Source: a virus. From it: 64,000 nucleotides of DNA. Below are positions 2,357 through 49,055 of this stretch, piece after piece. The notes beneath the pieces were generated by a model. The model saw only the letters and a program-made list of their open reading frames with translations, did no database searches and had not been told where the DNA came from. Each line of letters begins with the position of its first letter. Position 1 is the stretch's first letter. The translations under genes were made by a program, and so were the position numbers. The stretch is from IMG/VR virus record IMGVR_UViG_3300035703_000009, positions 1 to 64,000 of that record; one strand, given 5' to 3'.

Positions 2357-2689
2357 TTATTCTTTATTTGCTAATTCAAATAAAACGTCTGCGTGACAGG
2401 CTTTTGGATGACACCAACACGCGAGTGTCTTACCCTTCAATTTAGGTAGGTGTTCCAGTAACCACTTGCCTTCGCCCTCAGTGATCCACTCACGATACTT
2501 TTCAACAGCTTCTTCTCTGGTCGCAACTATGTGCTTAGCGAGAGTCTTCTTATCGGCCAGGTGGGTGAACGGGTTCCCCCATTGGGTTGGGCGTCCAACA
2601 TAGACGTCGTAGGCTTCCTTTTTAATGTGTACTACTTTAGGATGATTCATACTTTTCTTTTTCGGCCGCATCAAGCAGGCCCTTACCAA
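2357..2689 (-). CDS. DUF4326-like protein (YDVYVGRP...WGNPF...CWCHP..CHADVL)
   Basis: Motifs resemble the DUF4326 family found in phages and giant viruses. The true start is probably the internal Met near 2650, which gives only a small overlap with the upstream gene. Confidence 0.45.
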   Translation of the reverse strand: MVRACLMRPKKKSMNHPKVVHIKKEAYDVYVGRPTQWGNPFTHLADKKTLAKHIVATREEAVEKYREWITEGEGKWLLEHLPKLKGKTLACWCHPKACHADVLFELANKE

Positions 2690-3086
2690 ATTTTTCTACT
2701 CGCTCAACATATCGAGTTTTCACCCGGTCTGAGATGGCAAGCGGCGTGCCCTCATCATCGATGCGAACGAAGGTGATGTTGGTGTGCACCACTACTGCCT
2801 GCTTACCAGTATAAACGTTGTGCTTGCGAACTTCTAAGTAAACTTTGATTGATGTAGTGCCGAACTTTACCACCTCGCCGTAGATCTTTAGGATGTTGCC
2901 GATCTTTACAGGTGTCTTGAACACCAGCTCATCGATCTTTAGGGTGACGATTCGCTGAGTATCACAGATCTGTGAAACGTAAGATGCAGCCGCATCATCG
3001 ACGATCGAAAGTATTGTGCCCCCAAACATATTGGAGTGGACTCCGATATCGCTGGCTTTGCAAATATATGTTGTGATTAGTTCCAT
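2637..3086 (-). CDS. acyl-CoA thioesterase, hotdog fold (YciA/4HBT-like)
   Basis: HSNMFGGTILSIVDDAAA motif and a size of 149 aa, typical of hotdog thioesterases. Confidence 0.55.
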   Translation of the reverse strand: MELITTYICKASDIGVHSNMFGGTILSIVDDAAASYVSQICDTQRIVTLKIDELVFKTPVKIGNILKIYGEVVKFGTTSIKVYLEVRKHNVYTGKQAVVVHTNITFVRIDDEGTPLAISDRVKTRYVERVEKFGKGLLDAAEKEKYESS

Positions 3087-3090
3087 ATAG

Positions 3091-3438
3091 TTATTTTTTG
3101 ACTACTTTAAAAAGTGCTTTTTCGATGTAGAAACCGTTATTGATGAAATACTTTAAACTATCGACGTTACAGTGCGCGTAAACGGTTTTTTGAACATCCT
3201 TTAATTTAGCATCTCGATAGTTCCATAACATTTTATAGATTCCTCGACTTCTATATTCTTCTTTTACAAATGCATGGCATAAATAAATCACTGTTTCTTG
3301 TTCAACATATGAGACTATTCCTACTAACTCTCCTTTTATGAAACATCCATAATAGGTGGCGATTGCATCAATCAAGTCAGGTTTGATTTCGCTAAATTCC
3401 TTTTTTACTTTAGAATAATCTACTTTTTTTATTTCCAT
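3091..3438 (-). CDS. putative GNAT-family acetyltransferase
   Basis: 115 aa. The VKEEYRSRGIYKML stretch resembles the acetyl-CoA binding motif A. Confidence 0.35.
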   Translation of the reverse strand: MEIKKVDYSKVKKEFSEIKPDLIDAIATYYGCFIKGELVGIVSYVEQETVIYLCHAFVKEEYRSRGIYKMLWNYRDAKLKDVQKTVYAHCNVDSLKYFINNGFYIEKALFKVVKK

Positions 3439-4094
3439 TAGCTTTGAATGTTTGAACCAAACGACTTGTCCTGCACAACTTGGTTAAAGGGTAGCACCAC
3501 TCTAATGTTATACTTACCGGATTGGTTATGGTTATAGCTCATGTGCTGTAGTACTTTCGCATAAAAGTTGTCGATCTCCATGCCGGACCGCGCTCCCATC
3601 TCCAAGATGTCGAGGTAAGTCGTCGACTTGAGAGCGTATGCGTGCGCACACACTATCTGATTACGAAAGAACGGCTCGACAAGGCCTCCAAAGTACAGCT
3701 GGTCCCAATCGTTAAGTATCGATTGATTGATAGTTAGCAGCTCATTAGGGTCTGTCAGGAATAGAGCATCGTCCTCTAAGATGAGGACTCTATCCCAACT
3801 CTTGCTCTTAGCCAGCTGCACGCACTTGAGGTGGCTCGCTCTACAGGAGAGGGATCCCAACCTGTACTTCATGTCGTGCTTGATAAAGTTACGATACTCG
3901 ACCTGGTCAGGTAGCTGAGTGAGCTCGACCGCTTCTACTCTCTCAAAGTTGGTGATGTTCCACTTCTTAAACTGCTGTAGCAGACTAGCCATGCGACTCG
4001 TCTCACTAGCTCGGTTAATGTAGAGAACTCGATCAAAGTAGGAGTCGATTGATGTTGCCCGATAGGTAAAGTCATGCATCATCTCCTGTTCCAA
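3438..4094 (-). CDS. hypothetical protein, possibly GT25-like glycosyltransferase
   Basis: VLYINRASETSRM near the N-terminus and RVLILEDDALF resemble GT25 family motifs. Weak. Confidence 0.3.
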   Translation of the reverse strand: MEQEMMHDFTYRATSIDSYFDRVLYINRASETSRMASLLQQFKKWNITNFERVEAVELTQLPDQVEYRNFIKHDMKYRLGSLSCRASHLKCVQLAKSKSWDRVLILEDDALFLTDPNELLTINQSILNDWDQLYFGGLVEPFFRNQIVCAHAYALKSTTYLDILEMGARSGMEIDNFYAKVLQHMSYNHNQSGKYNIRVVLPFNQVVQDKSFGSNIQS

Positions 4095-4291
4095 ACCACC
4101 TCACCATTTACTTTGACTTTCGTGATTCCCTTGCCGCGAGAGAGCAGAGCGTTGACGTATTTTCTGGGACTCTTGATCTTATCATAGACTCGAGAGTTTC
4201 CTTTTTCATAGATGACAGTCACAGTATCGCCGCCTGGTAAGAGGCTCAATTCGTTGATTCTGTGCTCGTCACTGACGTGTATTGTGCTCAT
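4079..4291 (-). CDS. hypothetical protein (70 aa)
   Basis: ORF translationally coupled to neighbouring genes. Confidence 0.35.
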   Translation of the reverse strand: MSTIHVSDEHRINELSLLPGGDTVTVIYEKGNSRVYDKIKSPRKYVNALLSRGKGITKVKVNGEVVWNRR

Positions 4292-4632
4292 AGTTCAAAT
4301 TTTTTCTTTAGGAATTTATAGGAATTGGAATGACGAATTGGGTGCAACTCTTCAGTGAATTGGTCGATAAGTAAGATCAGAGAAGCTGTATGCGCATCAA
4401 TCAGGTCGACCTTCCTTTGGACAGTGACGTTTAGTCGTTCATCGATCTGCTCCTCAAGCTCTTCTTCGATCCATAGGTTGTCCTCAAGTTGGTGCTTGAA
4501 CTCGTCCATGTGCAAGTCCTCATAGACCCTGCGTGAGATGCCGTCCAGGATCAGCACTCTGGGCACGTGTGCGTACTGTTGTTCAGCGATGAGCGAGTCC
4601 TTTCCGGTGTATTTCCAACTTTTATACGGCAT
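4288..4632 (-). CDS. hypothetical protein (114 aa)
   Basis: ORF within the coupled gene series. No motif. Confidence 0.4.
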   Translation of the reverse strand: MPYKSWKYTGKDSLIAEQQYAHVPRVLILDGISRRVYEDLHMDEFKHQLEDNLWIEEELEEQIDERLNVTVQRKVDLIDAHTASLILLIDQFTEELHPIRHSNSYKFLKKKFEL

Positions 4633-4634
4633 GT

Positions 4635-4904
4635 TTACTTTATTTGGATCATTGATACCGATTCTACTCCGCGATAGATCAAAAGGTTTAGCGTGTCGTT
4701 GACCTGCACTAGGTTTAGACCATGGTCAACTTCGTGAGTCAGCCTGGTAATTTCGATGCCCTTTAGGGTCACGGCGTTGGTGCGGCCGATCTCTTCCACT
4801 TGAGTCGGCAGTTTCTTTGATTTCATCTTAATAAAGTAGGAGATTCCGATCGATGTTAATATTGAGAAGATTAAGATTAAGATAAACGGTTTTAGGTTAT
4901 ACAT
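4635..4904 (-). CDS. small membrane protein (N-terminal TM helix)
   Basis: Hydrophobic N-terminus LKPFILILIFSILTSIGISYFI. Confidence 0.4.
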   Translation of the reverse strand: MYNLKPFILILIFSILTSIGISYFIKMKSKKLPTQVEEIGRTNAVTLKGIEITRLTHEVDHGLNLVQVNDTLNLLIYRGVESVSMIQIK

Positions 4905-5427
4905 GGGCCTCTTGGGTTTTATTCTGGTGATTTAAGATCCTGTCTAAATGTTTCCACATCGCGCTGGCTTCGAGGTGTTCAGGTGTGAACAGGTTATCCC
5001 TAAAGTCCTGGTATTCTGAATAGTACATCTTCACGATGTCGTTGCCCATTCGTTGGCCGTGCTCGATGTTTGCGATGCGATCGGCTAGCTTCACGATGAT
5101 GGCTAACTCACCGCAAGCCCTAATCTTAGGATAGGTTTTGGCCTTGCGCTCCTTACGATTGCGACCTAGTTCGTCAGTGACTGCGAAGACTATCTCTGCC
5201 ACCCTGGTGCCAAAGGCTTGCTTGATCTTTGAATATGTTAGGTCGCCGTCCTCGATCGAGTCGTGCAACCAGCCGGCAATTAGGGCATCGCCGCTGTGAC
5301 CATACCGCTTAAGCACGTCGACCACATCGCGTAGGTGCTTTTCATATGGAAAAATATCGTATGTCTGGTTTCTGTGGGTCAACAGTGATACCATCTCAGC
5401 TTCGTGATATAGTTTTGCGTAATTCAT
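4897..5427 (-). CDS. small alarmone hydrolase (RelA/SpoT-type HD domain, Mesh1/SAH-like)
   Basis: HRNQTYD..FPYEKHLRDV...LIAGWLHDSIEDGD...VKLADRIANI matches the (p)ppGpp hydrolase HD-domain motifs (HD, ED, KLADRLHN). Confidence 0.65.
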   Translation of the reverse strand: MNYAKLYHEAEMVSLLTHRNQTYDIFPYEKHLRDVVDVLKRYGHSGDALIAGWLHDSIEDGDLTYSKIKQAFGTRVAEIVFAVTDELGRNRKERKAKTYPKIRACGELAIIVKLADRIANIEHGQRMGNDIVKMYYSEYQDFRDNLFTPEHLEASAMWKHLDRILNHQNKTQEAHV

Positions 5428-5720
5428 AGTTTATCCTTTAGTTTAGAGTAGCTTTTTTCTATTTTTTCAATGAGACCTAAGTCAACTGTTATCTTTTTTA
5501 AGTCGCTGATCGGCATCGGAGCGTAACAACGTTTGGTTCCTCTTATTTTTCGATACTTAATTCCGAGGCGAGATGTCGTCCAGTGCTTTTTAAGCGAGTC
5601 AGTGTGGCCTAAGTTAAAAGCATCTTCACTACACAAGACCAGAAAACCGACTTGTAAATCCTTTGCCATGAGCAAGGAGTCGTCTATCCAAAGGTCTGTT
5701 AAAATGAGCTGATTGTTCAT
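5424..5720 (-). CDS. hypothetical protein (98 aa)
   Basis: ORF overlapping the downstream gene start by 4 nt. Confidence 0.4.
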   Translation of the reverse strand: MNNQLILTDLWIDDSLLMAKDLQVGFLVLCSEDAFNLGHTDSLKKHWTTSRLGIKYRKIRGTKRCYAPMPISDLKKITVDLGLIEKIEKSYSKLKDKL

Positions 5721-5760
5721 GTGTTTAATATATGATACTAAAAATAGAGACTAATTAAAA

Positions 5761-5790
5761 CAAAAAAGGAGCGATTGCTCGCTCCTTTGT
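5761..5790 (-). terminator. rho-independent terminator (minus strand) downstream of 5807..6988
   Basis: Hairpin aaaggagcg-attgct-cgctccttt, followed on the minus strand by a T-run. Confidence 0.55.
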
Positions 5791-5806
5791 AAAGATAACT
5801 CATTTA

Positions 5807-6988
5807 TTATTTTCTGTCCTCAAGCAACTTCACTCCAAGTAAGCTTTCCAATAGGTTGGCTTGACCGTTTCCGTTGCTGCCTGAAATGTAGGTATTAGGC
5901 AGAGTAACTTTAGATAGTTTTTCAGCAACTCCGACTTTCGTCTTGTACTCCCATTCAGCTTTCTCCTGTGGAGTAAGACCGGCCGCTACTAATTTTGCGT
6001 TCTGATAAGATTGAGCATCAGCTAAGATCTTAATTTTTTGGTTTTCCAACTCAGCTGCCTCTTTTTCAAGTTTAGCAACCTCTTTTCTAGTTTCAGCGGT
6101 AACTACCTGTTTAGTTTGATCTTGTTTTTGTTCATATTCTATCTCCACGAGAGCTTGTTCACCCTTTGCCTTGGCTGTGAGGGCCTGTTGTTGGGCAGTC
6201 ATCAATTCCTGCTTGGAAACGCTAGCCTTAGTCGATGCGGCAACTTTCTTTGAGATCATGTCGTCCACTTGCTTTTCATAATCAACATCAGTGACCTGAG
6301 CGTCAGCTACTGTGATATTGTATTCTTTGATTGAGGAAGTTTTACGTTTGTATGTGCCGTCTCCGTTCTTTTGGATCTCTGTCTTATACACTCGCTTGTC
6401 TTCTTTCTCGAGAGAGTCGAACACAAACTGCTCGCTGGTCATCAAGAGGAAGGATCCATTCTTTAACTGATCGATGAAGTCCTGGGCCATCTGTGCTCGA
6501 CCTCCGGAGTAGTGCATCTCTGAGCTCATCAGCTGGGCTGAAGACTGCAAGCACTCTTTGGTATAAGGAGAGAGGCGTTTGGTCACCAACGACTGCGGAG
6601 TACGATGCGTGTTGTGGATGAGTACCATGTCCTTCTCGTCATTCGGCAAGATGTACTGGGTGATACCTTTCACATTAGCAGTAGTCGCGTCTCCACCAAA
6701 TCGAATGTTAATCACTCCGATCTCGATTGAGTTGTCGTTAAGATCTAAGTCGGCTTCGTTTTGCTGGTACGAAACTGAGATTTGGTTTGGCCATGCGGTC
6801 TGCTTTGCAAAGAAACCTGCATAGTAGACACCGGACTCAAACTGAACGAATTGCTTTCCACTTAATTGCTGGACAACGGTACGTTCACCACCATCGTTCC
6901 AGGAGAATGGGTTGATTATCGAAACTACGATTAACCCTACGATTGCAAGACCGGCAATCACGGCATACTTGATTGGACTTTTTTCCAT
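5807..6988 (-). CDS. SPFH/band-7 (stomatin/HflK-like) membrane protein
   Basis: N-terminal TM helix, then an SPFH-like segment (IINPFSW..GERTVV), then a long Glu/Lys/Ala-rich coiled coil. Confidence 0.5.
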   Translation of the reverse strand: MEKSPIKYAVIAGLAIVGLIVVSIINPFSWNDGGERTVVQQLSGKQFVQFESGVYYAGFFAKQTAWPNQISVSYQQNEADLDLNDNSIEIGVINIRFGGDATTANVKGITQYILPNDEKDMVLIHNTHRTPQSLVTKRLSPYTKECLQSSAQLMSSEMHYSGGRAQMAQDFIDQLKNGSFLLMTSEQFVFDSLEKEDKRVYKTEIQKNGDGTYKRKTSSIKEYNITVADAQVTDVDYEKQVDDMISKKVAASTKASVSKQELMTAQQQALTAKAKGEQALVEIEYEQKQDQTKQVVTAETRKEVAKLEKEAAELENQKIKILADAQSYQNAKLVAAGLTPQEKAEWEYKTKVGVAEKLSKVTLPNTYISGSNGNGQANLLESLLGVKLLEDRK

Positions 6989-7007
6989 TTTATTGTTGTT
7001 TAATTGT

Positions 7008-7280
7008 TTACAGATGTGATATTTTGCTCTTTAGGTCTTGAGCACGAGTGAGCTGATTTTTATAGCTCTCAAGGCGTTGTTCTGCCTCGATGACGCCGTT
7101 TGCAGAGTCAGCTTCTGCCTCTTCAATACGCTTCTTCAGCGTCTCGATGATCTGATCGATGCTTGTAGTGTCTGCCTTTTGCTTTGCTGGTGCCAAGTAA
7201 AACTTAGCAATGTTCCAGATTGCCCAAAAGAAGAGTAGGCTAAAACCTACGATGATGAATGTTACTAATAGTTTAAACAT
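7008..7280 (-). CDS. small membrane protein with coiled-coil tail
   Basis: N-terminal hydrophobic helix. Charged helical C-terminus. Confidence 0.45.
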   Translation of the reverse strand: MFKLLVTFIIVGFSLLFFWAIWNIAKFYLAPAKQKADTTSIDQIIETLKKRIEEAEADSANGVIEAEQRLESYKNQLTRAQDLKSKISHL

Positions 7281-7291
7281 AGTTTGATTGG

Positions 7292-7768
7292 TTATACGGT
7301 GTGCTCAATTCTTACTCTAACGCAAGTCTGAGGTTTATGAAAATTCATGAAAAAGTTATTGATGTAGCCCATTATGTTAGCTGAGCCGATTGGATTTGCC
7401 GAGTGGGTGTATATTGTTGGAAAATATCCACGTTGGTGAGGGTGCCTGACCTCAAACCAGTGTTCAACTAGCCATTTAGCGCAGTCATATCCGGTCTTTT
7501 CCTTGATGTTGTCGTAATTGAGAGTGTAGTTAGGAGAGACGTTTGTGTAATATTCCTGCATCGCAGAATCTCCCAAGTCATGGTCTAACGAGATGGTCTC
7601 TATGTTGTCCAGCCCAAGTTCATTGACTTTAGCTACGAACTCATCGTAACTTCTCACCACTATCCACTCAGGATCGATGGGAGTCCTGACGTCATCTAAA
7701 TAGATTTTATGTTTCATTGGAGCTATTATACTAACTTGAACTACTACTTTAAAATTTGTTTTGTGCAA
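7292..7768 (-). CDS. hypothetical protein (158 aa, TTG start)
   Basis: Intact ORF with conserved-looking YLDDVRTP...ISLDHDLGD...DCAKW segments. Family not recognised. Confidence 0.45.
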   Translation of the reverse strand: MHKTNFKVVVQVSIIAPMKHKIYLDDVRTPIDPEWIVVRSYDEFVAKVNELGLDNIETISLDHDLGDSAMQEYYTNVSPNYTLNYDNIKEKTGYDCAKWLVEHWFEVRHPHQRGYFPTIYTHSANPIGSANIMGYINNFFMNFHKPQTCVRVRIEHTV

Positions 7769-7771
7769 TGC

Positions 7772-7790
7772 GAATAAATAACTAAAAAAG
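7772..7790 (+). promoter_or_regulatory. late-promoter-like motif variant (GAATAAATAACTAAAAAAG)
   Basis: Close variant of the recurrent ATAAATAATAAAAA motif, 8 nt upstream of the ATG at 7798. Confidence 0.4.
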
Positions 7791-7797
7791 AAGCAAT

Positions 7798-8448
7798 ATG
7801 TCAGAACGAGTACTAAATTTCTCAGAATTCTTCACAAAATACTCAAAGGAAGGACACGTAGACCAGGCAAGCCTTGATAACTTTACAGGAGCAGCCGCTA
7901 ACTTTGAAGAAGGATTTGACAAAGACACATACGACCAAGCTCCACTGGGTCCAAAAAAACCGATCGCATCAAGCACTGAGACAACTCCTCCACAACCTGG
8001 AGAAGTAGGAGCTCCTACCTTTAACGCAGAAACAGAAGAAGACATGGTCGCGCCAGACGAGATCGTTGCTGCCGATGAACCTGAAGGAGATGCAGAAGAG
8101 CCAGCCGAAGAGGCTGATGAATCTGATGAGCCGACAGAAGAAAAAGAAGAGAATGATGAGACACCAGAACCGGAAGCCGGCGCTAATCCTAAGAAGAAAG
8201 AAGAAAAGGTAGAAGAAGGATTAGTTGTAGATTTCGCTAACTTCATCAATGAAGAGTTCGATGACTTTGAATACGAAGGAGATGATCACTATCATGAAGA
8301 GCAAGAAGAAGACGACTTATTGGGAGCTAATCCATTTGACGAAGACGATGACTTTGGCCATGAAGAAGACGAATACGAATATTGCGATCAGTGTGACGAA
8401 CCTATCTATCACACGGTAGAAGGAGCAAGCTGCGGATGTAACATGTAA
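7798..8448 (+). CDS. highly acidic protein with C-terminal Cys cluster
   Basis: 216 aa, Asp/Glu-rich, low complexity. C-terminal CDQCDEP...CGC. Promoter-motif variant lies upstream. Confidence 0.5.
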   Translation: MSERVLNFSEFFTKYSKEGHVDQASLDNFTGAAANFEEGFDKDTYDQAPLGPKKPIASSTETTPPQPGEVGAPTFNAETEEDMVAPDEIVAADEPEGDAEEPAEEADESDEPTEEKEENDETPEPEAGANPKKKEEKVEEGLVVDFANFINEEFDDFEYEGDDHYHEEQEEDDLLGANPFDEDDDFGHEEDEYEYCDQCDEPIYHTVEGASCGCNM

Positions 8449-8460
8449 AAAACTTAACGA

Positions 8461-9054
8461 ATGACTGGAATAATTATTGCATTCTTAGCAGGAGCGACGG
8501 CCGCAACATCTGCCTTGCTTGCCAAAAAATACTTGGCAACTAAAAAAAGACCTGACCTGATCGCTGACACAGTGAACAACGCTAACGTGATACACGATCA
8601 ATTAGATAAAATGCTAATAGAGTTTGAAGCCAACCGAATTTGGATAGCACAGTTTCACAATGGCGGACACTATTATCCAACCGGTAAGTCAATCCAAAAA
8701 TTTAGCTTCTTTTTTGAAGTAGTAAAGAACACAAAGGACGCTATTCAATCTAATTTTCAAAACATACCAGTGAACCTGTTTAGCAGAGCGCTAGGACAGA
8801 TACTTGAGAACGACATAATCGCTATCCCAGACTATAAAGACAAGAAGGTCGCTACCTATGGATTAAAATATGTGGCTGAGACCCACAAGTCAAAGAGCTC
8901 ATACCTTTTTGCCATCCGCAACGTTGACAACCGACTGATTGGTGTCATCGGGATCGACTATACCGAAAAAACTAAAAAACTTGATCCTCTTGATGTGACC
9001 CTACTTAAGTTAGAGGCAACCAAGATCGGTGGAGTGTTGATGAGTCACCTATGA
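8461..9054 (+). CDS. membrane-anchored hypothetical protein
   Basis: N-terminal TM helix (IIIAFLAGATAATSALLA). 197 aa. Confidence 0.5.
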   Translation: MTGIIIAFLAGATAATSALLAKKYLATKKRPDLIADTVNNANVIHDQLDKMLIEFEANRIWIAQFHNGGHYYPTGKSIQKFSFFFEVVKNTKDAIQSNFQNIPVNLFSRALGQILENDIIAIPDYKDKKVATYGLKYVAETHKSKSSYLFAIRNVDNRLIGVIGIDYTEKTKKLDPLDVTLLKLEATKIGGVLMSHL

Positions 9055-12135: not shown

Positions 12136-13845
12136 TTATAGAGCGCCTGCGCCTTTAGTTTCTCCGCCTTCTATGGTCTCAGCTCCTGCGGCAGGCTGTT
12201 CTGCTGTTGCTGCTGGTGCAGCAGCTGATGCACCTCCTCCTGCTGGAGCAGCCGCTTCTGATGCTGCAGCTTTTTCTTCAGCTGCCTTGCTCGCATCGAT
12301 CCAGTGTTTGTTAGAATCAATTTCGTCAGCAGTTAACCTTAGTTCTTTTCTAATGAGGTATTCGGTTGAGAAATATGGTGTACCATCGTCCTTCATGATT
12401 CCTTTCTTCGCAGTAAACGAAGCGATTCTCTTGGATTCAAGCTCATTCTGCTTCATTTCTTCAAAGACGTTATCGTTATTGAAAGTTATTCCAAGACCAT
12501 TACCGAACTTATAATCAGTCGCAAGATCAGGAAAGTCTAGGCACATCTGCAGGTAAAAAGGTTTAGTAATTAGTTCGGCAAAGACCGTACGCAGACGTCG
12601 AACGAATTTCTGATAACGAATCTCCTCACGAGTGATGCCCTCAGCGTTTAGCGTGAAGGCCCCCATACCGCTCTGTCCTTCCCAACGTGAGTAAGGAATC
12701 TTGGAGTCCATCTTCAGTTTCTTATAGAAGTAGTTTAGCAATTCAGAACCAGATAAGTTTGGGCCAGGCCATTGTAGAGGTTCGATCTTTACTTGTTGGT
12801 TCTGGTCATTGACTGGTAGCACATAGTTCTTATAGAACATCACGTTCGGCTTGCCCTCAACGCTCAGCTCACCAGTGTCACCGTTAAAGTAGATGTCCTC
12901 CTTAAGCAAGTTCATGAACTCTCTAACGTCTTCCTGACTCTTCTGTAAGCTCTTAGAACCAATCGGCACAGTAGTCGTCAGACGAATCGGTGCGTTCATC
13001 ACGTGCCAAATTACTTTGCTGTGTTCGATGATGCGTAATAAGTTAAAAGACCTGATCAAGCGCTCGGTGAAAGAGACGCGTTTGGTCCTAAAGTGGTTTG
13101 AGTAGGAAAGGTAGATGATTTGTGAGTCGTTTAGCACTCTAGTCGAACCGTTTGACTGGTCGTACTGTACCCATTGCAAGAATAACTTGCCCTTAGCATC
13201 CTTTTGTAACTGAGGAGCTAGACTCACAGGATCAAGCTCTTTAAAGCCGATGATCTCGGTAGGTTTCTGTAGGTTGTCATACAGAATCTCAAAGGCCAGG
13301 TGACCCTCAACCAGGAACTGGAAGGCGTACTGCCATGCCGTGATAGCTGTGTCAAACCCCCAAGCTGTATAGATCTTCTCAAAGTTCTCGTTGTACTTGG
13401 TGACAACCTTTTCTTGATAGTTTAGACGCTCGTCCTTAGTATTACCTTGATAGATCATCTTACCGGTAAGGTCTCGGCTGTAACAAAACCTGTTCTCCTC
13501 GTCATAGACGATCATGTCGTCGACGATGGTTTCGAGAATGAATTCAATCTCGCCATTGGCCGCAACGTCACGTAGTCGTTCACGCTTGACAGCATAGTCC
13601 AATTGGAAAAAGGCGATCGCTTTGGTCCTCAGCTGGGAGGTAGTATCGGCGATTGCCATCGAAAACTTGAGCAGGTCTGAGCTGTCTGCGCTAAGCTTGT
13701 TTGAGCGAGCTGCGATCTGGCTCTCGATGAAGCCGATCGCCTGTGAGTTTTTTAGGAGAAGGTCCTCGTATCGAGTGCCGAACTTACTAAGTCCTTCAAG
13801 CGCTCCTCCTGCTCTGTTTTTACGTACGTCTAAGAATCCTGCCAT
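12136..13845 (-). CDS. gp20: portal vertex protein (T4 gp20-like)
   Basis: 569 aa. The EEIRYQKFVRRLRTVFAELITKPF segment resembles T4 gp20 [22 protein letters not shown]. Ala-rich C-terminal tail. Lies adjacent to a gp4-like gene. Confidence 0.5.
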   Translation of the reverse strand: MAGFLDVRKNRAGGALEGLSKFGTRYEDLLLKNSQAIGFIESQIAARSNKLSADSSDLLKFSMAIADTTSQLRTKAIAFFQLDYAVKRERLRDVAANGEIEFILETIVDDMIVYDEENRFCYSRDLTGKMIYQGNTKDERLNYQEKVVTKYNENFEKIYTAWGFDTAITAWQYAFQFLVEGHLAFEILYDNLQKPTEIIGFKELDPVSLAPQLQKDAKGKLFLQWVQYDQSNGSTRVLNDSQIIYLSYSNHFRTKRVSFTERLIRSFNLLRIIEHSKVIWHVMNAPIRLTTTVPIGSKSLQKSQEDVREFMNLLKEDIYFNGDTGELSVEGKPNVMFYKNYVLPVNDQNQQVKIEPLQWPGPNLSGSELLNYFYKKLKMDSKIPYSRWEGQSGMGAFTLNAEGITREEIRYQKFVRRLRTVFAELITKPFYLQMCLDFPDLATDYKFGNGLGITFNNDNVFEEMKQNELESKRIASFTAKKGIMKDDGTPYFSTEYLIRKELRLTADEIDSNKHWIDASKAAEEKAAASEAAAPAGGGASAAAPAATAEQPAAGAETIEGGETKGAGAL

Positions 13846-14481: not shown

Positions 14482-14982
14482 TTACATGTTATTGAACAGA
14501 AAGTTTTCGGTGATGATACCAAACTTCATGTTTTGACTCAACGCATACGCTTGAGCGGCCTTAAACTTTGCAGTATTGATGATATACATCTTCGCATGAC
14601 GCGCATAGTTTAATGTCTGTTTTTCAGTGAGCCGAGTAGGAGGCTCAGGTGGAGTCAAGTACTTGTTGGGTTTGATCTCGATAAGCCACTTCGTCACAGA
14701 ATCATCCTGGTTCCTCGTGCACATATAACAGTCGATCCAATATGTACTCTCCTTTTTGAGAATCGGATTAAAGTAAGGGATCCCGTGAGGTTCTGAGGCA
14801 TACTCAAGGACTCGGATATGATTGTCACAGTACTCTAAGAACTTAAATTCCCAGCTAGAACGATAGATGATCTTAGTAAGGTCTCCCTTGTACTTTTCTG
14901 GGTTCTTGGGAGTAAAATAACCCTGACGAACTCTGCCGTTTTGCGGCTTGAGAAAATCATGGATGTCCTTTTTAGCTTTCAT
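14482..14982 (-). CDS. gp4: head completion protein (T4 gp4-like, PD-(D/E)xK fold)
   Basis: GYFTPKNPEKYKGDLTKIIYRSSWEFKF and WLIEIKP motifs match the gp4 family as recalled for T4 and cyanophages. Confidence 0.55.
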   Translation of the reverse strand: MKAKKDIHDFLKPQNGRVRQGYFTPKNPEKYKGDLTKIIYRSSWEFKFLEYCDNHIRVLEYASEPHGIPYFNPILKKESTYWIDCYMCTRNQDDSVTKWLIEIKPNKYLTPPEPPTRLTEKQTLNYARHAKMYIINTAKFKAAQAYALSQNMKFGIITENFLFNNM

Positions 14983-15000
14983 ATAGGATTATTTATCCAA

Positions 15001-15030
15001 AAATAAAAATGGAGCCGACTTGGGCTCCAT
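15001..15030 (-). terminator. rho-independent terminator (minus strand) downstream of 15052..15363
   Basis: Hairpin atggagcc-gacttg-ggctccat, followed on the minus strand by a T-run (an A-run at 15001-15009 on plus). Confidence 0.55.
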
Positions 15031-15051
15031 TCAGTTATCTGTGAGTTAGGC

Positions 15052-15363
15052 TTAACCTACGTTGTCTGCGATGAATTGGTCTGCGTCCTCTGGGCCGATT
15101 TTGCCCTGCTCAACGAGCTTTAGGATTAGTGAGGCAATCGCCAGCTTTTCAGGCACTGCGTCCTCGTCGATCTCTACTTCATTACGTTCGAAAGCGGCGA
15201 CTAGGTCCTCGTGAGCTTCCTTTGCGGCAGCCTCAACTTCTTCTTCAGAACCAACTAGCTCAACCAGTTCGTCCAGCATTTGAGTGTCTAGGTCGAGCGC
15301 ATTTTCCTCATCCGGATTGGCACCAACCACATAATTTTCATCGAGTCTAAGTAACTTAACCAT
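15052..15363 (-). CDS. acidic hypothetical protein (103 aa), late-expressed
   Basis: Asp/Glu-rich. Late-promoter motif lies 9 nt upstream on the minus strand. Confidence 0.5.
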   Translation of the reverse strand: MVKLLRLDENYVVGANPDEENALDLDTQMLDELVELVGSEEEVEAAAKEAHEDLVAAFERNEVEIDEDAVPEKLAIASLILKLVEQGKIGPEDADQFIADNVG

Positions 15364-15371
15364 GGTGGTAT

Positions 15372-15387
15372 GTTTTTATTATTTATC
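15372..15387 (-). promoter_or_regulatory. T4-late-like promoter motif (reverse-complement GATAAATAATAAAAAC)
   Basis: Exact 14-mer in minus orientation, immediately upstream of the start at 15363. Confidence 0.55.
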
Positions 15388-15395
15388 AACCCAAC

Positions 15396-16565
15396 TTACG
15401 CTAAAATGAGATCAAATGCCGAGTCTGAAAAGTATTGAGCGAGCATGGAATTAAAGCTCACAAAGGTTAAAGAAGAATCTCGAATCGAGAGGAAGAGGTA
15501 AAGGTCATTGATGTCTTTCACATCAAGCAAGAGTCGAGCCGATTGGGGATATTTCTTCTTTAGGTCGCTTATCAGCTTGGTCCACAAGAAGACTTGATAT
15601 CCCTGCTTCAGAAGCTCAATCGATTGCTGCTTACCGGCCTTGTCGTTGTCGAAGAGAATACGAGAGTTCTTTTTGGTGACCAAGTTACCGAGTAAGGCCT
15701 TGCTCTTTGTCACGCCGGTGGTGGCGATCGAGTTGTCAAGGAACATCGAATCGATCTGGCCCTCAGTAATAATTATGGGACGCGAGAAGTCAACGTTCAG
15801 CACGTTGAAGTAGTTATTTAACGAGTCGATTTCTTGAATCAGGCTGTCCTCCAGGTCCCTCACGAGGCCGTTCTTTTTGAGTTCAGAATAGTTCTTGATG
15901 TTGTACTTTGGTCCGGGCATGGAATCATCGAGCTTACGTAGGGCAAAGCCCAGCATTCGGCCCGACTTGAGGTCTAGGTTGAATAAGTACACCTTGTCCT
16001 GTCGAGAGTCATAATAACAACTCGACTCAAACACAGGTAGACTGTCAATCTTACGCTTTTTGACGAATCGGCCGACTGGGCTCTCAGGATCGGCCTCACT
16101 GCAAGGTAACAGAGAAAACCTCTCGACTAGGTCATCAAACATTAGCAGTTTCTGACCGATCTCACGATTGATGAGAAGCTCTATTAAAAAGCCTCTCTTC
16201 TTTAGCGTGGTCTCAGGCTTGAACTCTACTCGCTTCTTCTCTAACCCAGGTAGGGTCAAGTTATACTTGGTTGAAAAGTGGGAGATGAACTTTGCAAGCG
16301 GCACCCACACCATGCAACCGTCGTTGTAACACTTATAGGTATGGGTTTTGAGGTAGAGGTTACCTCGTTTCTTGTGTGAATCGGATGCGGAGTCGCCACA
16401 GTAAGGGCAGGCAATGTTTATCTTGTCTCCGTCTGACTCATATATCTCTTGCTTAGTCAACTCGTTTGGAAACCTTCGCTTCAGTACTGCCTTACAGAAC
16501 TGTTGCAGAGAGTAGTCGGTCTTCAGGTCCAGTTGGTTATTCATCGTCAGTGTCATCTTCTCCAT
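15396..16565 (-). CDS. gp61: DNA primase (T4 gp61 / DnaG-like: zinc-binding domain + TOPRIM)
   Basis: CPYCGDSASDSHKKRGNLYL...KCYNDGC zinc finger. ITEGQIDSMFL and LFDNDKAGK match TOPRIM E and DxD motifs. Confidence 0.6.
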   Translation of the reverse strand: MEKMTLTMNNQLDLKTDYSLQQFCKAVLKRRFPNELTKQEIYESDGDKINIACPYCGDSASDSHKKRGNLYLKTHTYKCYNDGCMVWVPLAKFISHFSTKYNLTLPGLEKKRVEFKPETTLKKRGFLIELLINREIGQKLLMFDDLVERFSLLPCSEADPESPVGRFVKKRKIDSLPVFESSCYYDSRQDKVYLFNLDLKSGRMLGFALRKLDDSMPGPKYNIKNYSELKKNGLVRDLEDSLIQEIDSLNNYFNVLNVDFSRPIIITEGQIDSMFLDNSIATTGVTKSKALLGNLVTKKNSRILFDNDKAGKQQSIELLKQGYQVFLWTKLISDLKKKYPQSARLLLDVKDINDLYLFLSIRDSSLTFVSFNSMLAQYFSDSAFDLILA

Positions 16566-17973
16566 TTTCAGCCTCGACTAGTGCGGCTTGTTTCTTCTTA
16601 GTGAGTCGTTTAATGTATTTGTCCAGCTCAAACTTCGGCACGATCACCGAGTTTAGGCCGTACTTTGTGATGGTCGCAAGGTACTCTGGAAAGTCATCCT
16701 CTGAGACTTGAGTTTCAGGATTACCGATTATCTTCCAGAACTTTTGTGGAGTCTCAATGTATTCTAGAGAGTCTTGGTTGACCACATAAAGCGGATAGAT
16801 CTGATCATCCGTGAGATCTTTTTTAGACTTAACAGTCACAACTTCGACTGCTCTTTTTAGATGCGTGTCGATTGAGCTCATCTTCATCGCGACGAGGAGT
16901 CGATTGATGGGTTCGACGATTAAGGTAAAGAATTGTTGGTCACGATCCATAGGCGGAGCGAGCTCAGTAGGATAATTTTCAGGAGCATAGGCAAATACAT
17001 CAAAGTTGTGCTCGTTTGGAGCGCAATAGTAGAACTTGATCTTGTCCTTTTCGCGAATGAGCGAGTACTTTTGGTTGAGTCCGCTCTTAAGCAGAAGATA
17101 GTTATAGTAAGCCGATGCTCGAGGATAGATTGAGATACCCTTCTTAAGGTTTAGGGTCGTAATGTCCTCGACATACTTGTTATAGACTCGCACGTTAAAG
17201 TTAAAGGCTAATTCAGTAGGGTGGAGTTCCATGAACTCTTCCTTAAGAGCTTGTAGCTTGGGAATGAGGTCACGCTCAATATTCAGCTTCTTACCGATCT
17301 CGAGGATGTATTCATCTAGCTTGATCAGGTTCTTACGAGCCCAGTCAGGATAGGAACCTTTGATCGGTTCTAAGCCCTTGATGACTAGGTAACGTTTTTC
17401 TTTAGGCATCAGTGCCAAGTTAGGATTCGGATCGTAAGCTACCTTGATCGCATAGTTCTTTTTCTTGAGCCAGATGCCATACTCAGACAGGTTCTCAAGC
17501 TTGAACTTGAGACGGTTCTTCGTGTTGAAGATCTTTCCGTACTTTTCAAAGCACTGGTCAAAGTATTTCGATAGTCTGTGATGGTCGATGGCGACACAAA
17601 TCGCTAGGGCTTCTTCACGAGTGAATGAAGCGCCTTCTATCGAATCGATAGCTGATTCAAACTGCACGTAAATGGAGTCAGTATCAGTGTAGATTGCAGC
17701 TTCACGCTCGATCTTATTGATCTTGTATCCGTCGATTTTCAATATCTGGTGAAGCTCAGTATCAAGGTGCCACTTTTCTTGAAAGTAGTAGTTCACTGCC
17801 TTGATGGAAAACTTGATCAAGTCTTGGCCCTGTAAAGTTATAGATTGGGCGATGTCTGGGTTGTAAAAATAGAACCACTTGTTACCAAAGGCTCCATAGA
17901 TTGAGTTAATTAAGATCTTGACTGCGTTTTGCTTAAGGTCTAACTTTTTGATCTGCTTTGTTATGTCTTCCAT
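16537..17973 (-). CDS. gp43: family-B DNA polymerase, C-terminal fragment (T4 gp43-like, from motif B onward)
   Basis: KILINSIYGAFGN (motif B, KxxxNSxYG) near the N-terminus and YTDTDSIYV (motif C). No motif A or exonuclease domain. No upstream ORF continues the frame. Confidence 0.8.
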   Translation of the reverse strand: MEDITKQIKKLDLKQNAVKILINSIYGAFGNKWFYFYNPDIAQSITLQGQDLIKFSIKAVNYYFQEKWHLDTELHQILKIDGYKINKIEREAAIYTDTDSIYVQFESAIDSIEGASFTREEALAICVAIDHHRLSKYFDQCFEKYGKIFNTKNRLKFKLENLSEYGIWLKKKNYAIKVAYDPNPNLALMPKEKRYLVIKGLEPIKGSYPDWARKNLIKLDEYILEIGKKLNIERDLIPKLQALKEEFMELHPTELAFNFNVRVYNKYVEDITTLNLKKGISIYPRASAYYNYLLLKSGLNQKYSLIREKDKIKFYYCAPNEHNFDVFAYAPENYPTELAPPMDRDQQFFTLIVEPINRLLVAMKMSSIDTHLKRAVEVVTVKSKKDLTDDQIYPLYVVNQDSLEYIETPQKFWKIIGNPETQVSEDDFPEYLATITKYGLNSVIVPKFELDKYIKRLTKKKQAALVEAENGEDDTDDE

Positions 17974-18133: not shown

Positions 18134-18754
18134 ATGGTCGAAGAAGAACTGGAAAGTATTTCAGAGATATGTGACAGCTTACCTTTTATGCAGTCTTTTC
18201 CATTTAGAGACTATGCAATAACTTTGCAAGACACACCTGATCAGTCCACCCAAGACTTAGGCATTGATCCAATACTCATAAAAACATTCGGCCACCTCGA
18301 ACTCAGCAAGAGGGTACACTTTAGCTATGTAGAAGGCGACTCGACCATCATGGTCAGCTTTTACCTAGACGACCTAAAGTTCATCGATGTAAACCAAAAG
18401 AGGATCACCAAGCTGGACTCGGTTCGTGCAGAACTTGAACATGGGCTCGCTTCAAATGACGTTGATACTAAGATCAAGATGATTAAGAGGGGCAAGAGCT
18501 TCGTAAAGAAGTTTAAGTCTTCGATCCTAGACTCACCGTCTTTTGAGAGAATACTGATGGACCTTTGCGAGATAAAGGAGGCCCACCTGGCGACTAACGT
18601 GATGTTAGACTTGCACAAGTTGAATCCTAATGACTCACTTAAACATGGAGACTTTTCAAAAAGAGATCGTGAGACCATCGCAGCATATCTCAATTTTCAA
18701 CTGCACTATGCTAAGATTATCTTAGGAATCGTAATTGCAGCTAAAATATACTAA
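18134..18754 (+). CDS. hypothetical protein (206 aa), late-expressed
   Basis: ORF preceded by the late-promoter motif. Confidence 0.5.
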   Translation: MVEEELESISEICDSLPFMQSFPFRDYAITLQDTPDQSTQDLGIDPILIKTFGHLELSKRVHFSYVEGDSTIMVSFYLDDLKFIDVNQKRITKLDSVRAELEHGLASNDVDTKIKMIKRGKSFVKKFKSSILDSPSFERILMDLCEIKEAHLATNVMLDLHKLNPNDSLKHGDFSKRDRETIAAYLNFQLHYAKIILGIVIAAKIY

Positions 18755-19523
18755 TTACATGGCAAAAACAAGAGGACGCAGAGAAAAAGAAGAACTAGAA
18801 AATCTCGATGACTGGGACAAGAAAAACATCGCTGATCGTATGAAGGCGAGTTTTTCCCAAAAGATCGATATTAAGTGTAAGTCTAACGCACAAAAAGAAG
18901 TTCTTAATGCTATTGAACAGAATTTTATCACCATTATCACTGGTCCTCCAGGCACAGGTAAGACTTACTTATCTTGTGCAAGAGCTCTAAAATACGTAAA
19001 AGATCACAATGAACCCTATCAAAAGATAGTGTTAATTAAATCAGTTAATGTGCCAAAGGACGAGGAGATCGGTTACCTAAAAGGCACTCTCGAAGAAAAG
19101 ATGGAGATGTACATGTACCCGTTCATCTCAAACTTTCACAAGGTCATCGGCAAGACTGCAACCGAAGAGCTTAAGGCTAATGGAGTGATCGAGATCCTGC
19201 CGATCAAGTTTGCGCTTGGAGTCACTCTTGATAACTCGATCGTGCTCATCGACGAGGCTCAGCAGATTGCAAAGGATCACCTTCACACGCTCTCAACCAG
19301 AATAGGAACTAATTCTAAAATGATCTTCCTTGGGGACATCAAGCAAAAATCAGTCAATAAATCCCAAAAGAGCGCGCTGGAAATACTAATGGAACACTTT
19401 GACGGGCACGAAGGAATAGGTTCAGCGAAGCTAGGAGTCGATGACATAGTGCGCCATCCAATCATAAAAACTCTTGAGGAGATCTTCCAAAAGATAGAAG
19501 ACGCCGAGAAGCTTAATAAATAA
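18735..19523 (+). CDS. phoH: PhoH-like ATPase
   Basis: ITGPPGTGKTYLS Walker A, LIDEAQQ Walker B and a GDIKQ motif, typical of PhoH. Confidence 0.8.
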   Translation: MQLKYTNYMAKTRGRREKEELENLDDWDKKNIADRMKASFSQKIDIKCKSNAQKEVLNAIEQNFITIITGPPGTGKTYLSCARALKYVKDHNEPYQKIVLIKSVNVPKDEEIGYLKGTLEEKMEMYMYPFISNFHKVIGKTATEELKANGVIEILPIKFALGVTLDNSIVLIDEAQQIAKDHLHTLSTRIGTNSKMIFLGDIKQKSVNKSQKSALEILMEHFDGHEGIGSAKLGVDDIVRHPIIKTLEEIFQKIEDAEKLNK

Positions 19524-39921: not shown

Positions 39922-39932
39922 GAGCGTTTAGA

Positions 39933-41530: not shown

Positions 41531-41546
41531 ATTTAAAAATTGTTTT

Positions 41547-44366: not shown

Positions 44367-44376
44367 CGTAGTTCAT

Positions 44377-49052: not shown

Positions 49053-49055
49053 TAT

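What the first reader, a model, noticed from the sequence alone, without database searches (positions are those of the whole stretch)
4897..5427. Phage-encoded small alarmone hydrolase (RelA/SpoT HD domain)
The 176-aa protein has the complete (p)ppGpp-hydrolase signature (HD ... LHDSIED ... KLADRIANI) without a synthetase domain. Such SAHs can degrade (p)ppGpp or (p)ppApp. During infection they could block the host stringent response or neutralise toxic small-alarmone-synthetase defence toxins.
Basis: partly seen in the sequence, partly recalled or inferred. Interest (0 to 1): 0.55.

Follow-up and report, generated by a model that had tools for sequence, protein, structure and literature searches.

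The report
Huge-phage small alarmone hydrolase gene
A large phage carries a well-conserved single-domain enzyme of the RelA/SpoT hydrolase type, probably used to undo the host's alarmone- or tRNA-based growth arrest; such phage genes are already known, so this is a solid but ordinary find.

Summary
A 176-aa ORF lies on the minus strand at 4897-5427, has a Shine-Dalgarno site, and overlaps both neighbouring ORFs.

It is a stand-alone RelA/SpoT-type hydrolase (SAH):
- It passes the Pfam HD_4 threshold.
- All 23 PDB sequence hits are RSH hydrolase domains or Aph1.
- The AF2 model (pLDDT 94) matches PaSAH and Mesh1 at TM 0.77-0.80.
- Motifs HD2-HD6 are intact and invariant in 47 relatives.

One caveat: the signature is not quite complete. 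The base-stacking HD1 arginine is absent (Thr22/Tyr23, with Tyr23 invariant). PaSAH also lacks this arginine and is active.

The window is a huge/jumbo phage with no close GenBank relative. The closest SAH relatives (45-87% identity) are all on viral or metagenomic contigs.

In one large sister clade the gene sits in an Rnl1...SAH-DNA ligase-RNA ligase block. The window's own clade instead has an SPFH gene upstream and cREC and DUF4326 genes nearby.

Phage SAHs that neutralise toxSAS toxins, and SAHs that remove tRNA 3'-pyrophosphate, are published, as is an alarmone-hydrolysing HD enzyme ("HD-alarmone PDEase") in jumbo phages. Verdict: new member of a known kind, with activity and substrate untested. 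Interest is about 0.3.

The parts
4897..5427 (-). SAH gene: 176-aa single-domain RelA/SpoT-type HD hydrolase
   Evidence: ORF. HD_4 E=1.2e-10. spoT_relA N-terminal region E=1.5e-13. PDB hits are all RSH hydrolases. AF2 pLDDT 94.1, Foldseek TM 0.80 to PaSAH. pN/pS about 0.12.
5248..5268 (-). Codons for LHDSIED (residues 54-60): HD3 His55-Asp56 (metal binding) and HD4 Glu59-Asp60 (catalytic pair)
   Evidence: Read from the sequence. H55, D56, E59 and D60 are invariant in 47 homologues. They align to MESH1 H61/D62/E65/D66. Motif definitions are from PMC9293644.
5068..5091 (-). Codons for KLADRIAN (residues 113-120): HD5 Asp116-Arg117 and HD6 Asn120
   Evidence: Read from the sequence. K113, D116, R117 and N120 are invariant. 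They align to KLADKLYN of MESH1.
5335..5364 (-). Codons for residues 22-31 (TYDIFPYEKH): shortened HD1 loop lacking the canonical Arg (Thr22/Tyr23), then HD2 His31
   Evidence: Y23, Y28, K30 and H31 are invariant and D24 is at least 90% conserved. Alignments put the HD1 Arg opposite Y23 (S. aureus Rel, Lmo0812) or T22 (MESH1, ungapped RelSeq register).
5434..5438 (-). Shine-Dalgarno-like AAGGA, 6 nt upstream of the ATG
   Evidence: Read directly from the sequence.
5424..5720 (-). orf98: upstream small gene whose TGA stop overlaps the SAH start (ATGA). Function unknown.
   Evidence: ORF. No Pfam or PADLOC hit. Only 3 homologues, all 98 aa. The same orf98-SAH overlap occurs in L174/L175. Absent in L081.
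4635..4904 (-). orf89: downstream small gene with an N-terminal hydrophobic helix. Its start overlaps the SAH stop by 8 nt. Function unknown.
   Evidence: ORF and translation. An 89-aa gene sits in the same position in L174/L175. No PADLOC hit.
5807..6988 (-). Context gene: membrane-anchored SPFH/Band 7 protein upstream of the SAH block. A functional link is not shown.
   Evidence: Band_7 E=1.7e-5. An SPFH gene lies upstream of SAH in at least 5 SAH groups plus L174.
5765..5788 (-). Terminator-like hairpin (10-bp stem followed by a T-run) between the SPFH gene and orf98
   Evidence: This is a consensus match only. The total number of terminator-like sites is not above the shuffled expectation.
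7292..7768 (-). Context gene: cREC_REC (cyclic-phosphate-processing receiver) domain protein
   Evidence: PF20274 E=1.4e-21. Conserved in L081/L082/L174. The domain is linked to RNA ligases and NAD+ systems in PMC7824862.

Best explanation
The gene encodes an active, stand-alone, metal-dependent (Mn2+ in characterised relatives) 3'-pyrophosphohydrolase of the small alarmone hydrolase (SAH) branch of the RelA/SpoT superfamily.

Proposed mechanism: His31, His55, Asp56 and Asp116 hold the metal. Glu59 and Asp60 activate the attacking water. Lys113, Arg117 and Asn120 bind the substrate. The enzyme cuts the 3'-pyrophosphate from (p)ppGpp and/or (p)ppApp and, like other SAHs, probably also from tRNA whose CCA end has been pyrophosphorylated.

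Proposed role: the gene is expressed from a block of small, translationally coupled genes in a huge phage. It keeps the infected cell's translation and transcription running by cancelling RSH-based growth arrest, that is, the stringent response or toxSAS/CapRel-type abortive defence.

Shown here: the gene, its fold, motif conservation, purifying selection, and its viral distribution. Inferred: metal dependence, catalytic activity, substrate range and role during infection.
For: - Family: HD_4 above the gathering score. TIGR00691 hydrolase region. The A1 profile hits only RSH hydrolases or Aph1 in the PDB, best 4.5e-20.
- Fold: AF2 pLDDT 94.1, pTM 0.90. The top Foldseek hits are RelH, PaSAH (TM 0.80), Drosophila Mesh1 (TM 0.77), human MESH1 and Rel/SpoT N-terminal domains.
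- Active site: HD2-HD6 residues are invariant in 47 homologues that are 51-86% identical to the query. Motif roles are from PMC9293644.
- Constraint: pN 0.097 against pS 0.79.
- Phage setting: portal, gp23-like capsid, protease. The best portal relative is a 462-kb uncultured phage.
- Distribution: the closest SAH relatives are on viral or metagenomic contigs, many of 200-370 kb. Bacterial species representatives reach at most 49% identity.
- Precedent: the validated SSU5 phage SAH is a detectable homologue, with hhalign probability 97.6% and 26% identity. Phage SAHs neutralise all toxSAS families (PMC7229694). SAHs restore pyrophosphorylated tRNA (SSU5 PaSpo). Jumbo-phage 'HD-alarmone PDEase' was already predicted as a counter-defence (PMC7824862).
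Against:
- The HD1 arginine that stacks on guanine is absent. R44Q inactivates RelSeq (PMC9293644). PaSAH is active with Leu at this position.
- Identity to any characterised SAH is only about 25-30%.
- The host is unknown, so it is unknown whether it encodes toxSAS systems.
- No PADLOC or anti-defence signature lies in the neighbourhood.
- MESH1 shows that this fold can act mainly on non-alarmone substrates (NADPH, PAPS).
Confidence: 0.72

Rival explanations
1. A dedicated RNA-end healing enzyme. On this reading the physiological substrate is 3'-pyrophosphorylated (or 3'-phosphorylated) tRNA or RNA, and the SAH belongs to the phage's RNA-repair toolkit rather than acting as an alarmone scavenger.
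For: - In 46 dereplicated viral SAH groups, a DNA-ligase-family gene lies within 2 genes in 26. A T4 Rnl1-type RNA ligase lies within 6 genes in 23, and a PF09414 RNA ligase in 22. The typical order is Rnl1...SAH-ligase-RNA ligase.
- L083 adds a CCA-adding enzyme directly downstream, plus Tpt1.
- phiCbK has RtcB and peptidyl-tRNA hydrolase within 5 kb of its SAH.
- The window has cREC 2 kb away and a borderline HAD_SAK_1 RNA-repair phosphatase at 22625-23185.
- SAHs do remove tRNA 3'-pyrophosphate.
Against: - The ligase-linked SAHs form one subclade, so the synteny is largely a single inherited arrangement.
- The window's SAH sits in a different subclade without ligases. No ligase, CCA-adding enzyme or Tpt1 homologue is found in the 64 kb.
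- Large phages pool auxiliary genes in islands, so proximity is weak evidence.
Confidence: 0.25
2. A pure stringent-response blocker. On this reading the enzyme is a (p)ppGpp hydrolase that prevents host shutdown during a long huge-phage infection in nutrient-poor conditions, unrelated to any immune system.
For: - It has the same fold and motifs as (p)ppGpp hydrolases.
- The phage carries other host-physiology genes: PhoH, DnaJ and a sugar-biosynthesis cluster.
- The idea is discussed for phage Adele (PMC12846349).
Against: The guanine-stacking HD1 Arg is missing. The only experimental phenotypes for phage SAHs so far are toxSAS neutralisation.
Confidence: 0.3
3. A MESH1-like phosphatase acting on NADPH or another 2'/3'-phosphorylated nucleotide, as part of an NAD+/ADP-ribose-centred conflict island.
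For: - The fold matches the human MESH1-NADPH and MESH1-PAPS complexes.
- The neighbours cREC and DUF4326 are both assigned to NAD+-centred systems in PMC7824862.
- NUDIX and PARP genes lie near relatives, and NUDIX plus NAPRT lie near the phiCbK SAH.
Against: MESH1 is not the closest relative, with E=3e-14 against 4.5e-20 for Lmo0812. MESH1's R24/K25 are not conserved. The NAD+ link is proximity only.
Confidence: 0.08
4. An unrelated HD phosphohydrolase (dNTPase, 5'-nucleotidase, HD-GYP) or an inactive pseudo-enzyme.
For: The generic Pfam HD model also matches weakly (E=0.0011, below its cut-off). The HD1 Arg is absent.
Against: No other HD family appears among the PDB sequence or fold hits. 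All metal and catalytic residues are invariant and under purifying selection.
Confidence: 0.03

Closest known systems
Phage-encoded SAHs validated by toxSAS neutralisation: Salmonella phage SSU5 PaSpo (SSU5_099) and PVP-SE1 PbcSpo (Jimmy et al. 2020, PMC7229694)
   Same: Stand-alone phage HD hydrolases of the RSH superfamily. The SSU5 protein is a detectable homologue (hhalign probability 97.6%). It shares the HD2, HD3, HD4 and HD6 motifs.
   Different: Identity is only 26% over 134 aa. SSU5 keeps an Arg-Lys pair in the HD1 loop and has Asp-Leu at HD5. The window protein has Thr/Tyr in the HD1 loop and Asp-Arg at HD5. The window protein is 176 aa against 213 aa. It comes from a huge-phage lineage rather than a temperate plasmid-like phage. 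PVP-SE1 was not compared.
Pseudomonas aeruginosa PaSAH (PDB 6YVC, 6Z3N)
   Same: This is the best full-length structural match (TM 0.78-0.81). It also lacks the HD1 Arg (Leu) yet is active, with HD5 intact (PMC9293644).
   Different: About 25% identity. It is a chromosomal bacterial gene. Its HD1 residue is Leu, not Tyr/Thr.
Metazoan Mesh1/MESH1 (PDB 3NQW, 3NR1, 5VXA, 9CHY)
   Same: Same fold (TM 0.77 for Drosophila Mesh1) and same catalytic residues. It hydrolyses ppGpp and tRNA 3'-pyrophosphate in vitro.
   Different: MESH1 has a longer HD1 loop with R24/K25, and its main cellular substrate is NADPH. Identity is 24-30%.
'HD-alarmone PDEase' of group 2/3 jumbo phages (Iyer et al. 2021, PMC7824862; e.g. 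BBI90576.1). The top hit in the viral structure library is a Tenacibaculum phage PTm1 phosphohydrolase; whether that is the same protein was not checked.
   Same: Same predicted function and same kind of genome. The PTm1 and pT24 proteins are the top BFVD structural hits.
   Different: About 26-28% identity. That paper's prediction is computational only and does not describe the ligase or SPFH linkages seen here.
Aph1 (p)ppApp hydrolase (PDB 7SMG; PMC10083569)
   Same: A related HD fold that hydrolyses a 3'-pyrophosphate.
   Different: The match is much weaker (E=7.5e-5 against 4.5e-20; TM about 0.55-0.63). The window protein is not a member of this family.

Membership tests
Small alarmone hydrolase (RSH-superfamily HD hydrolase) | Matches the RelA/SpoT-type HD domain model above its curated threshold | tested here: met
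   PF13328 HD_4: 41.7 bits against a 27.2 cut-off. All homologues carry PF13328.
Small alarmone hydrolase (RSH-superfamily HD hydrolase) | HD2 His, HD3 His-Asp and the HD5 Asp as metal ligands | tested here: met
   H31, H55, D56 and D116 are invariant in 47 sequences. They align to MESH1 H35/H61/D62/D122.
Small alarmone hydrolase (RSH-superfamily HD hydrolase) | HD4 Glu-Asp catalytic pair | tested here: met
   E59 and D60 are invariant. Motif role is from PMC9293644.
Small alarmone hydrolase (RSH-superfamily HD hydrolase) | HD5 Asp followed by Arg/Lys, and HD6 Asn | tested here: met
   D116-R117 and N120 are invariant.
Small alarmone hydrolase (RSH-superfamily HD hydrolase) | HD1 Arg that stacks on the guanine base | tested here: not met
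   The candidate positions are Thr22 (variable in the family, Arg in a few members) and Tyr23 (invariant). There is precedent for activity without the Arg: PaSAH has Leu. I therefore treat this as a subfamily variation, not an exclusion.
Small alarmone hydrolase (RSH-superfamily HD hydrolase) | Single hydrolase domain with no synthetase or regulatory domains | tested here: met
   176 aa, nine helices and one compact domain. TIGR00691 matches only its positions 19-120 of 687.
Small alarmone hydrolase (RSH-superfamily HD hydrolase) | Three-dimensional similarity to solved SAHs | tested here: met
   Foldseek TM 0.77-0.81 to PaSAH and Drosophila Mesh1. All top 50 hits are RSH hydrolases or Aph1.
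Small alarmone hydrolase (RSH-superfamily HD hydrolase) | Mn2+-dependent hydrolysis of (p)ppGpp, (p)ppApp or tRNA 3'-pyrophosphate | not testable with these tools
   Requires enzymology.
Named SAH subfamily (PaSpo, PbcSpo, Mesh1 and others; 11 subfamilies in Jimmy et al. 2020) | Best hit to that subfamily's HMM or position in its phylogeny | not testable with these tools
   The subfamily HMMs and datasets are not available and the paper's supplements are not held. Identity to the PaSpo member from SSU5 is only 26%.
Aph1-type (p)ppApp hydrolase | Closest sequence and structure relationship to Aph1 | tested here: not met
   7SMG is the weakest of the 23 PDB hits (E=7.5e-5) and ranks 22nd or lower by fold.
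Other HD phosphohydrolases (dNTPase, 5'-nucleotidase, HD-GYP) | Significant profile or fold match to those families | tested here: not met
   None appears among the PDB sequence hits at E<=1e-3 or among the top 50 Foldseek hits. The generic PF01966 match is below threshold.

The most novel reading that the evidence does not exclude
The huge-phage SAH clade could be a tRNA/RNA 3'-end 'depyrophosphorylase' rather than a nucleotide scavenger. On this reading it was recruited into phage RNA-repair cassettes (Rnl1...SAH-ligase-RNA ligase, sometimes with a CCA-adding enzyme) to reverse CapRel/FaRel2-type tRNA pyrophosphorylation. The family-specific loss of the guanine-stacking HD1 Arg, replaced by an invariant Tyr, would be an adaptation to the terminal adenosine (A76) of tRNA. 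The recurrent upstream SPFH gene would then mark a second, still unexplained functional partnership.
Probability: 0.2. Interest if true: 0.6.

Novelty: new member of a known kind. Interest (0 to 1): 0.3.

Why it matters
If the protein is active, huge phages carry their own eraser for RelA/SpoT-family signals. That adds another lineage to the known phage counter-measures against stringent-response and toxSAS (CapRel-like) abortive defences.

The finding also defines a large, almost exclusively viral SAH clade: about 1,000 clusters at 50% identity, with E<=1e-30. The clade has a distinctive HD1 loop. In one branch it has a conserved placement among RNA and DNA ligases.

This gives experimenters a concrete panel for asking whether phage SAHs work mainly on alarmones or on damaged tRNA ends. 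The basic idea is already published, so the gain is incremental.

Tried and rejected
- **Near-identity DNA search.** A megablast of 3000-9000 against GenBank phages found nothing, so no annotated close relative exists.
- **PADLOC.** A scan of the SAH and nine neighbours gave no hits.
- **Ligases in the window.** A tblastn of the window with ligase, Rnl1, RNA ligase, NUDIX, PARP, PNK, CCA-adding enzyme and Tpt1 representatives from related loci gave no hits. The RNA-repair cassette is therefore not in these 64 kb.
- **Promoters.** The scan found fewer sigma-70-like sites than the shuffled expectation (7 against 11.9), so no promoter is claimed.
- **Subfamily assignment.** The supplementary classification tables of Jimmy et al. 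2020 are not held, so I could not assign an SAH subfamily.
- **Domain fusions.** I checked ten longer family members. One is a HAD-SAH fusion (P0138); the other nine show only HD_4. This is too thin to build on.
- **orf98.** A homologue search found only 3 relatives and no annotation.
- **Ligase synteny.** I considered treating it as independent support for an RNA-repair role for the window gene. I rejected that because the NJ tree shows the linked genes form one subclade that excludes the window.
- **tRNA genes.** None in the window.

Full report
**Observation.** The ORF is real. It lies on the minus strand at 4897..5427, starts with ATG and encodes 176 aa.

I read three motif regions directly from the sequence:
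- LHDSIED, residues 54-60, at 5248-5268.
- KLADRIAN, residues 113-120, at 5068-5091.
- A further metal-binding His31 in 'PYEKHL'.

An AAGGA Shine-Dalgarno sequence (5434-5438) sits 6 nt upstream of the start. The start codon overlaps the stop of an upstream 98-aa ORF as ATGA. The stop codon overlaps the start of a downstream 89-aa ORF by 8 nt. The gene is therefore embedded in a translationally coupled run of small minus-strand genes.

Against an 85%-identical homologue from a syntenic metagenomic contig (L081), non-synonymous divergence is 0.097 per site. Synonymous sites are saturated at 0.79. The gene is under purifying selection.

**What it is.** All sequence and structure evidence points to one family.
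- Pfam HD_4, the RelA/SpoT-type HD domain, matches above its gathering score (41.7 against 27.2 bits, E=1.2e-10). The generic HD model stays below its threshold.
- NCBIfam's spoT_relA model matches only its N-terminal hydrolase region, positions 19-120 of 687.
- PHROG 990 matches at 1.7e-30.
- A phmmer search of the PDB returns Lmo0812, the Rel/SpoT N-terminal domains, the bacterial SAHs (PaSAH, RelH of Corynebacterium and Leptospira) and Mesh1.
- A profile of 47 homologues (A1) sharpens this to 23 hits. All are RSH hydrolases or the (p)ppApp hydrolase Aph1, with the best E=4.5e-20.
- An AlphaFold2 model built on A1 is confident (mean pLDDT 94.1, pTM 0.90). It is a single nine-helix domain.
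- In Foldseek against the PDB, the top 50 hits are all RSH hydrolase domains or Aph1. TM-scores are 0.78-0.81 to PaSAH and 0.77 to Drosophila Mesh1.
- The viral structure library gives phosphohydrolases of Tenacibaculum phages PTm1 and pT24 and of Caulobacter phage CcrSC.

**Active site.** I used the six HD motifs as defined in PMC9293644. Five of the six are present:

| Motif | Residues here | Conservation in A1 |
|---|---|---|
| HD2 | His31 | invariant |
| HD3 | His55-Asp56 | invariant |
| HD4 | Glu59-Asp60 | invariant |
| HD5 | Asp116-Arg117 | invariant |
| HD6 | Asn120 | invariant |

HD1 is the exception. This is the arginine that stacks on the guanine base (RelSeq R44, RelH R24, MESH1 R24), and it is not present. 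The loop between helix 1 and His31 is short. Alignments place the arginine opposite Tyr23 (S. aureus Rel, Lmo0812) or opposite Thr22 (MESH1 and the ungapped RelSeq register). Tyr23 is invariant and Asp24 nearly so. Position 22 is variable and is Arg in only a few members.

The 'complete signature' is therefore really five of six motifs. This does not argue strongly against activity. PaSAH has Leu at HD1 and is active, although R44Q kills RelSeq. It is a family-specific feature that could bear on base preference.

**Where it lives.** The window is phage DNA. It carries:
- a portal (12136-13845), a DNA polymerase fragment, a helicase and a prohead protease;
- a gp23-like major capsid protein, DnaJ and topoisomerase II subunits;
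- PhoH.

It has no near-identical DNA in GenBank phages. Its portal is most similar (39%) to a 462-kb uncultured phage, then to 630-735-kb uncultured phages and to the Lak megaphages. The window therefore comes from a huge/jumbo phage lineage.

**Relatives of the SAH.**
- There are 1356 homologues at E<=1e-5 and 1079 clusters at 50% identity with E<=1e-30. Nearly all are about 165-185 aa and single-domain.
- The relatives that are 45-87% identical lie on viral or metagenomic contigs, many of them 200-370 kb.
- Bacterial species-representative genomes reach at most 49% identity. The best of those are short MAG contigs.

**Neighbourhoods.** I called ORFs in 89 related loci, clustered them, and dereplicated the SAHs at 90% identity into 46 groups.

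| Neighbouring gene | Groups out of 46 | Distance from SAH |
|---|---|---|
| ATP-dependent DNA-ligase-family gene | 26 | within 2 genes |
| T4 Rnl1-type RNA ligase | 23 | within 6 genes |
| PF09414 RNA ligase | 22 | within 6 genes |
| NUDIX | 8 | within 6 genes |
| PARP | 6 | within 6 genes |
| PNK-CPD | 5 | within 6 genes |

The usual order is Rnl1...SAH-ligase-RNA ligase. One locus, L083, adds a CCA-adding enzyme immediately downstream and Tpt1 further on. The unrelated Caulobacter phage phiCbK has Band 7, RtcB, peptidyl-tRNA hydrolase, NUDIX and NAPRT genes within 5 kb of its SAH.

This looks like an RNA-repair setting, but a neighbour-joining tree shows the ligase-linked SAHs form one subclade. 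The arrangement is mostly a single inherited synteny.

The window's SAH belongs to a different small subclade (window, L081, L088, L168). The window contains no homologue of those ligases, of the CCA-adding enzyme or of Tpt1.

The window's conserved block is cREC - small ORF - SPFH/Band 7 - (orf98) - SAH - (orf89) - two small ORFs - GT25 - GNAT - thioesterase - DUF4326. The cREC and DUF4326 domains were both assigned to NAD+- or RNA-end-centred conflict systems in PMC7824862. A terminator-like hairpin separates the SPFH gene from orf98.

An SPFH gene upstream of the SAH recurs in the window's clade and in two groups of the ligase clade. I cannot explain this.

**How it most likely works.** Inferring from the family, the four metal ligands hold a divalent metal (Mn2+ in characterised relatives). 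Glu59 and Asp60 activate water. The enzyme removes the 3'-pyrophosphate from a ribose 3'-O-pyrophosphate ester.

Known substrates of this fold are:
- (p)ppGpp and (p)ppApp;
- the pyrophosphorylated CCA end of tRNA (MESH1, ATfaRel and SSU5 PaSpo);
- NADPH and PAPS for MESH1.

The SAHs of phages PVP-SE1 and SSU5 neutralise all five toxSAS families (PMC7229694). The SSU5 enzyme is a detectable but distant homologue of the window protein, at 26% identity and hhalign probability 97.6%.

The best-supported reading is that the phage uses this enzyme to cancel RSH-based growth arrest, whether by alarmones or by tRNA modification. I cannot separate the substrates by sequence. The authors of the phage Adele study say the same of their SAH (PMC12846349).

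**Comparison with the known, and novelty.**
- Phage SAHs are experimentally established as toxSAS antagonists (2020).
- SAH action on tRNA is established (2021).
- An 'HD-alarmone PDEase' was already catalogued in group 2/3 jumbo phages (2021).

This gene is therefore a new, divergent member of a known kind. Three things are new here, all modest and computational:
1. A very large, essentially viral SAH clade with an Arg-less, Tyr-bearing HD1 loop.
2. The conserved placement of one branch of the clade between RNA and DNA ligases.
3. The recurrent SPFH neighbour.

Interest is about 0.3. The most novel reading still open is a dedicated tRNA-end repair function. I put that at about 0.2 probability.

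Noticed in passing
window 36000-52000, minus strand: A low-GC block (32-38% against about 43% elsewhere) of consecutive sugar-pathway genes. It contains NeuB-like nonulosonic acid synthase (37263-38225), an NAD epimerase/dehydratase (38150-39184), an FkbM methyltransferase (39181-39921), GT25 (39933-40715), GT11 (40691-41530), a UDP-Glc/GDP-Man dehydrogenase (45104-46204) and a GT29 sialyltransferase-like protein (49056-50513). This looks like a phage-borne surface-glycan modification cluster, possibly acquired horizontally.
   Followed up: partly
window 5807-6988 (-), and loci L081, L084-L086, L123-L126, L168/L169, L174: A membrane-anchored SPFH/Band 7 gene sits just upstream of the SAH in the window's clade and in two groups of a different SAH clade. 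The SPFH proteins themselves are divergent (270-655 aa). phiCbK and SSU5 also encode Band 7 proteins, but not adjacent to their SAHs. No explanation.
   Followed up: partly
loci L083-L169 (viral contigs): A conserved Rnl1...SAH-DNA-ligase-family-RNA ligase (PF09414) block occurs in 22-27 of 46 SAH groups, with NUDIX, PARP and PNK-CPD nearby. L083 also has a CCA-adding enzyme, a PheRS-like gene and Tpt1. This looks like a nucleic-acid-end repair island in one jumbo-phage lineage.
   Followed up: yes
window 7292-7768 (-), 2357-2689 (-), 22625-23185 (+): Three domains that Aravind-group papers tie to RNA-end or NAD+ conflicts: cREC_REC (E=1.4e-21), DUF4326 (E=3e-27) and a borderline HAD_SAK_1 'Swiss-army-knife' RNA-repair phosphatase (25.8 against 25.6 bits).
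   Followed up: partly
window 5424-5720 (-) and 4635-4904 (-): Two small ORFs flank the SAH and overlap it. This orf98-SAH-orf89 triad is conserved in L174/L175, but both small ORFs are missing from the otherwise syntenic L081. orf98 has only three homologues among 5.8 billion proteins.
   Followed up: partly
window 14482-17973 (-): The DNA polymerase ORF (16537-17973, 478 aa) matches only the C-terminal half of the PHROG 262 profile (positions 500-841 of 856). A TnsA-like endonuclease gene (14482-14982) lies nearby. The polymerase gene may be split or interrupted.
   Followed up: no
window 7798-8448 (+): A 216-aa, extremely acidic (Asp/Glu-rich) protein ending in a Cys-rich tail. It has no Pfam hit. 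A long antisense ORF (7782-8249) is probably a by-product of the biased composition.
   Followed up: no
window 57746-59518 (+): A 590-aa protein with UspA1-type adhesin repeats and a beta-roll (ice-binding-like) match. It is probably a fibre or adhesin.
   Followed up: no
protein P0138 (50%-cluster library): A single 468-aa protein fuses an N-terminal HAD phosphatase to a C-terminal SAH of this clade. It could be a genuine fusion or a gene-calling merge.
   Followed up: partly
window 51831-52826 (+), 18735-19523 (+), 60581-63985 (-): The phage encodes DnaJ (J domain plus C-terminal domain), PhoH and both type II topoisomerase subunits. These are typical of very large phages.
   Followed up: no
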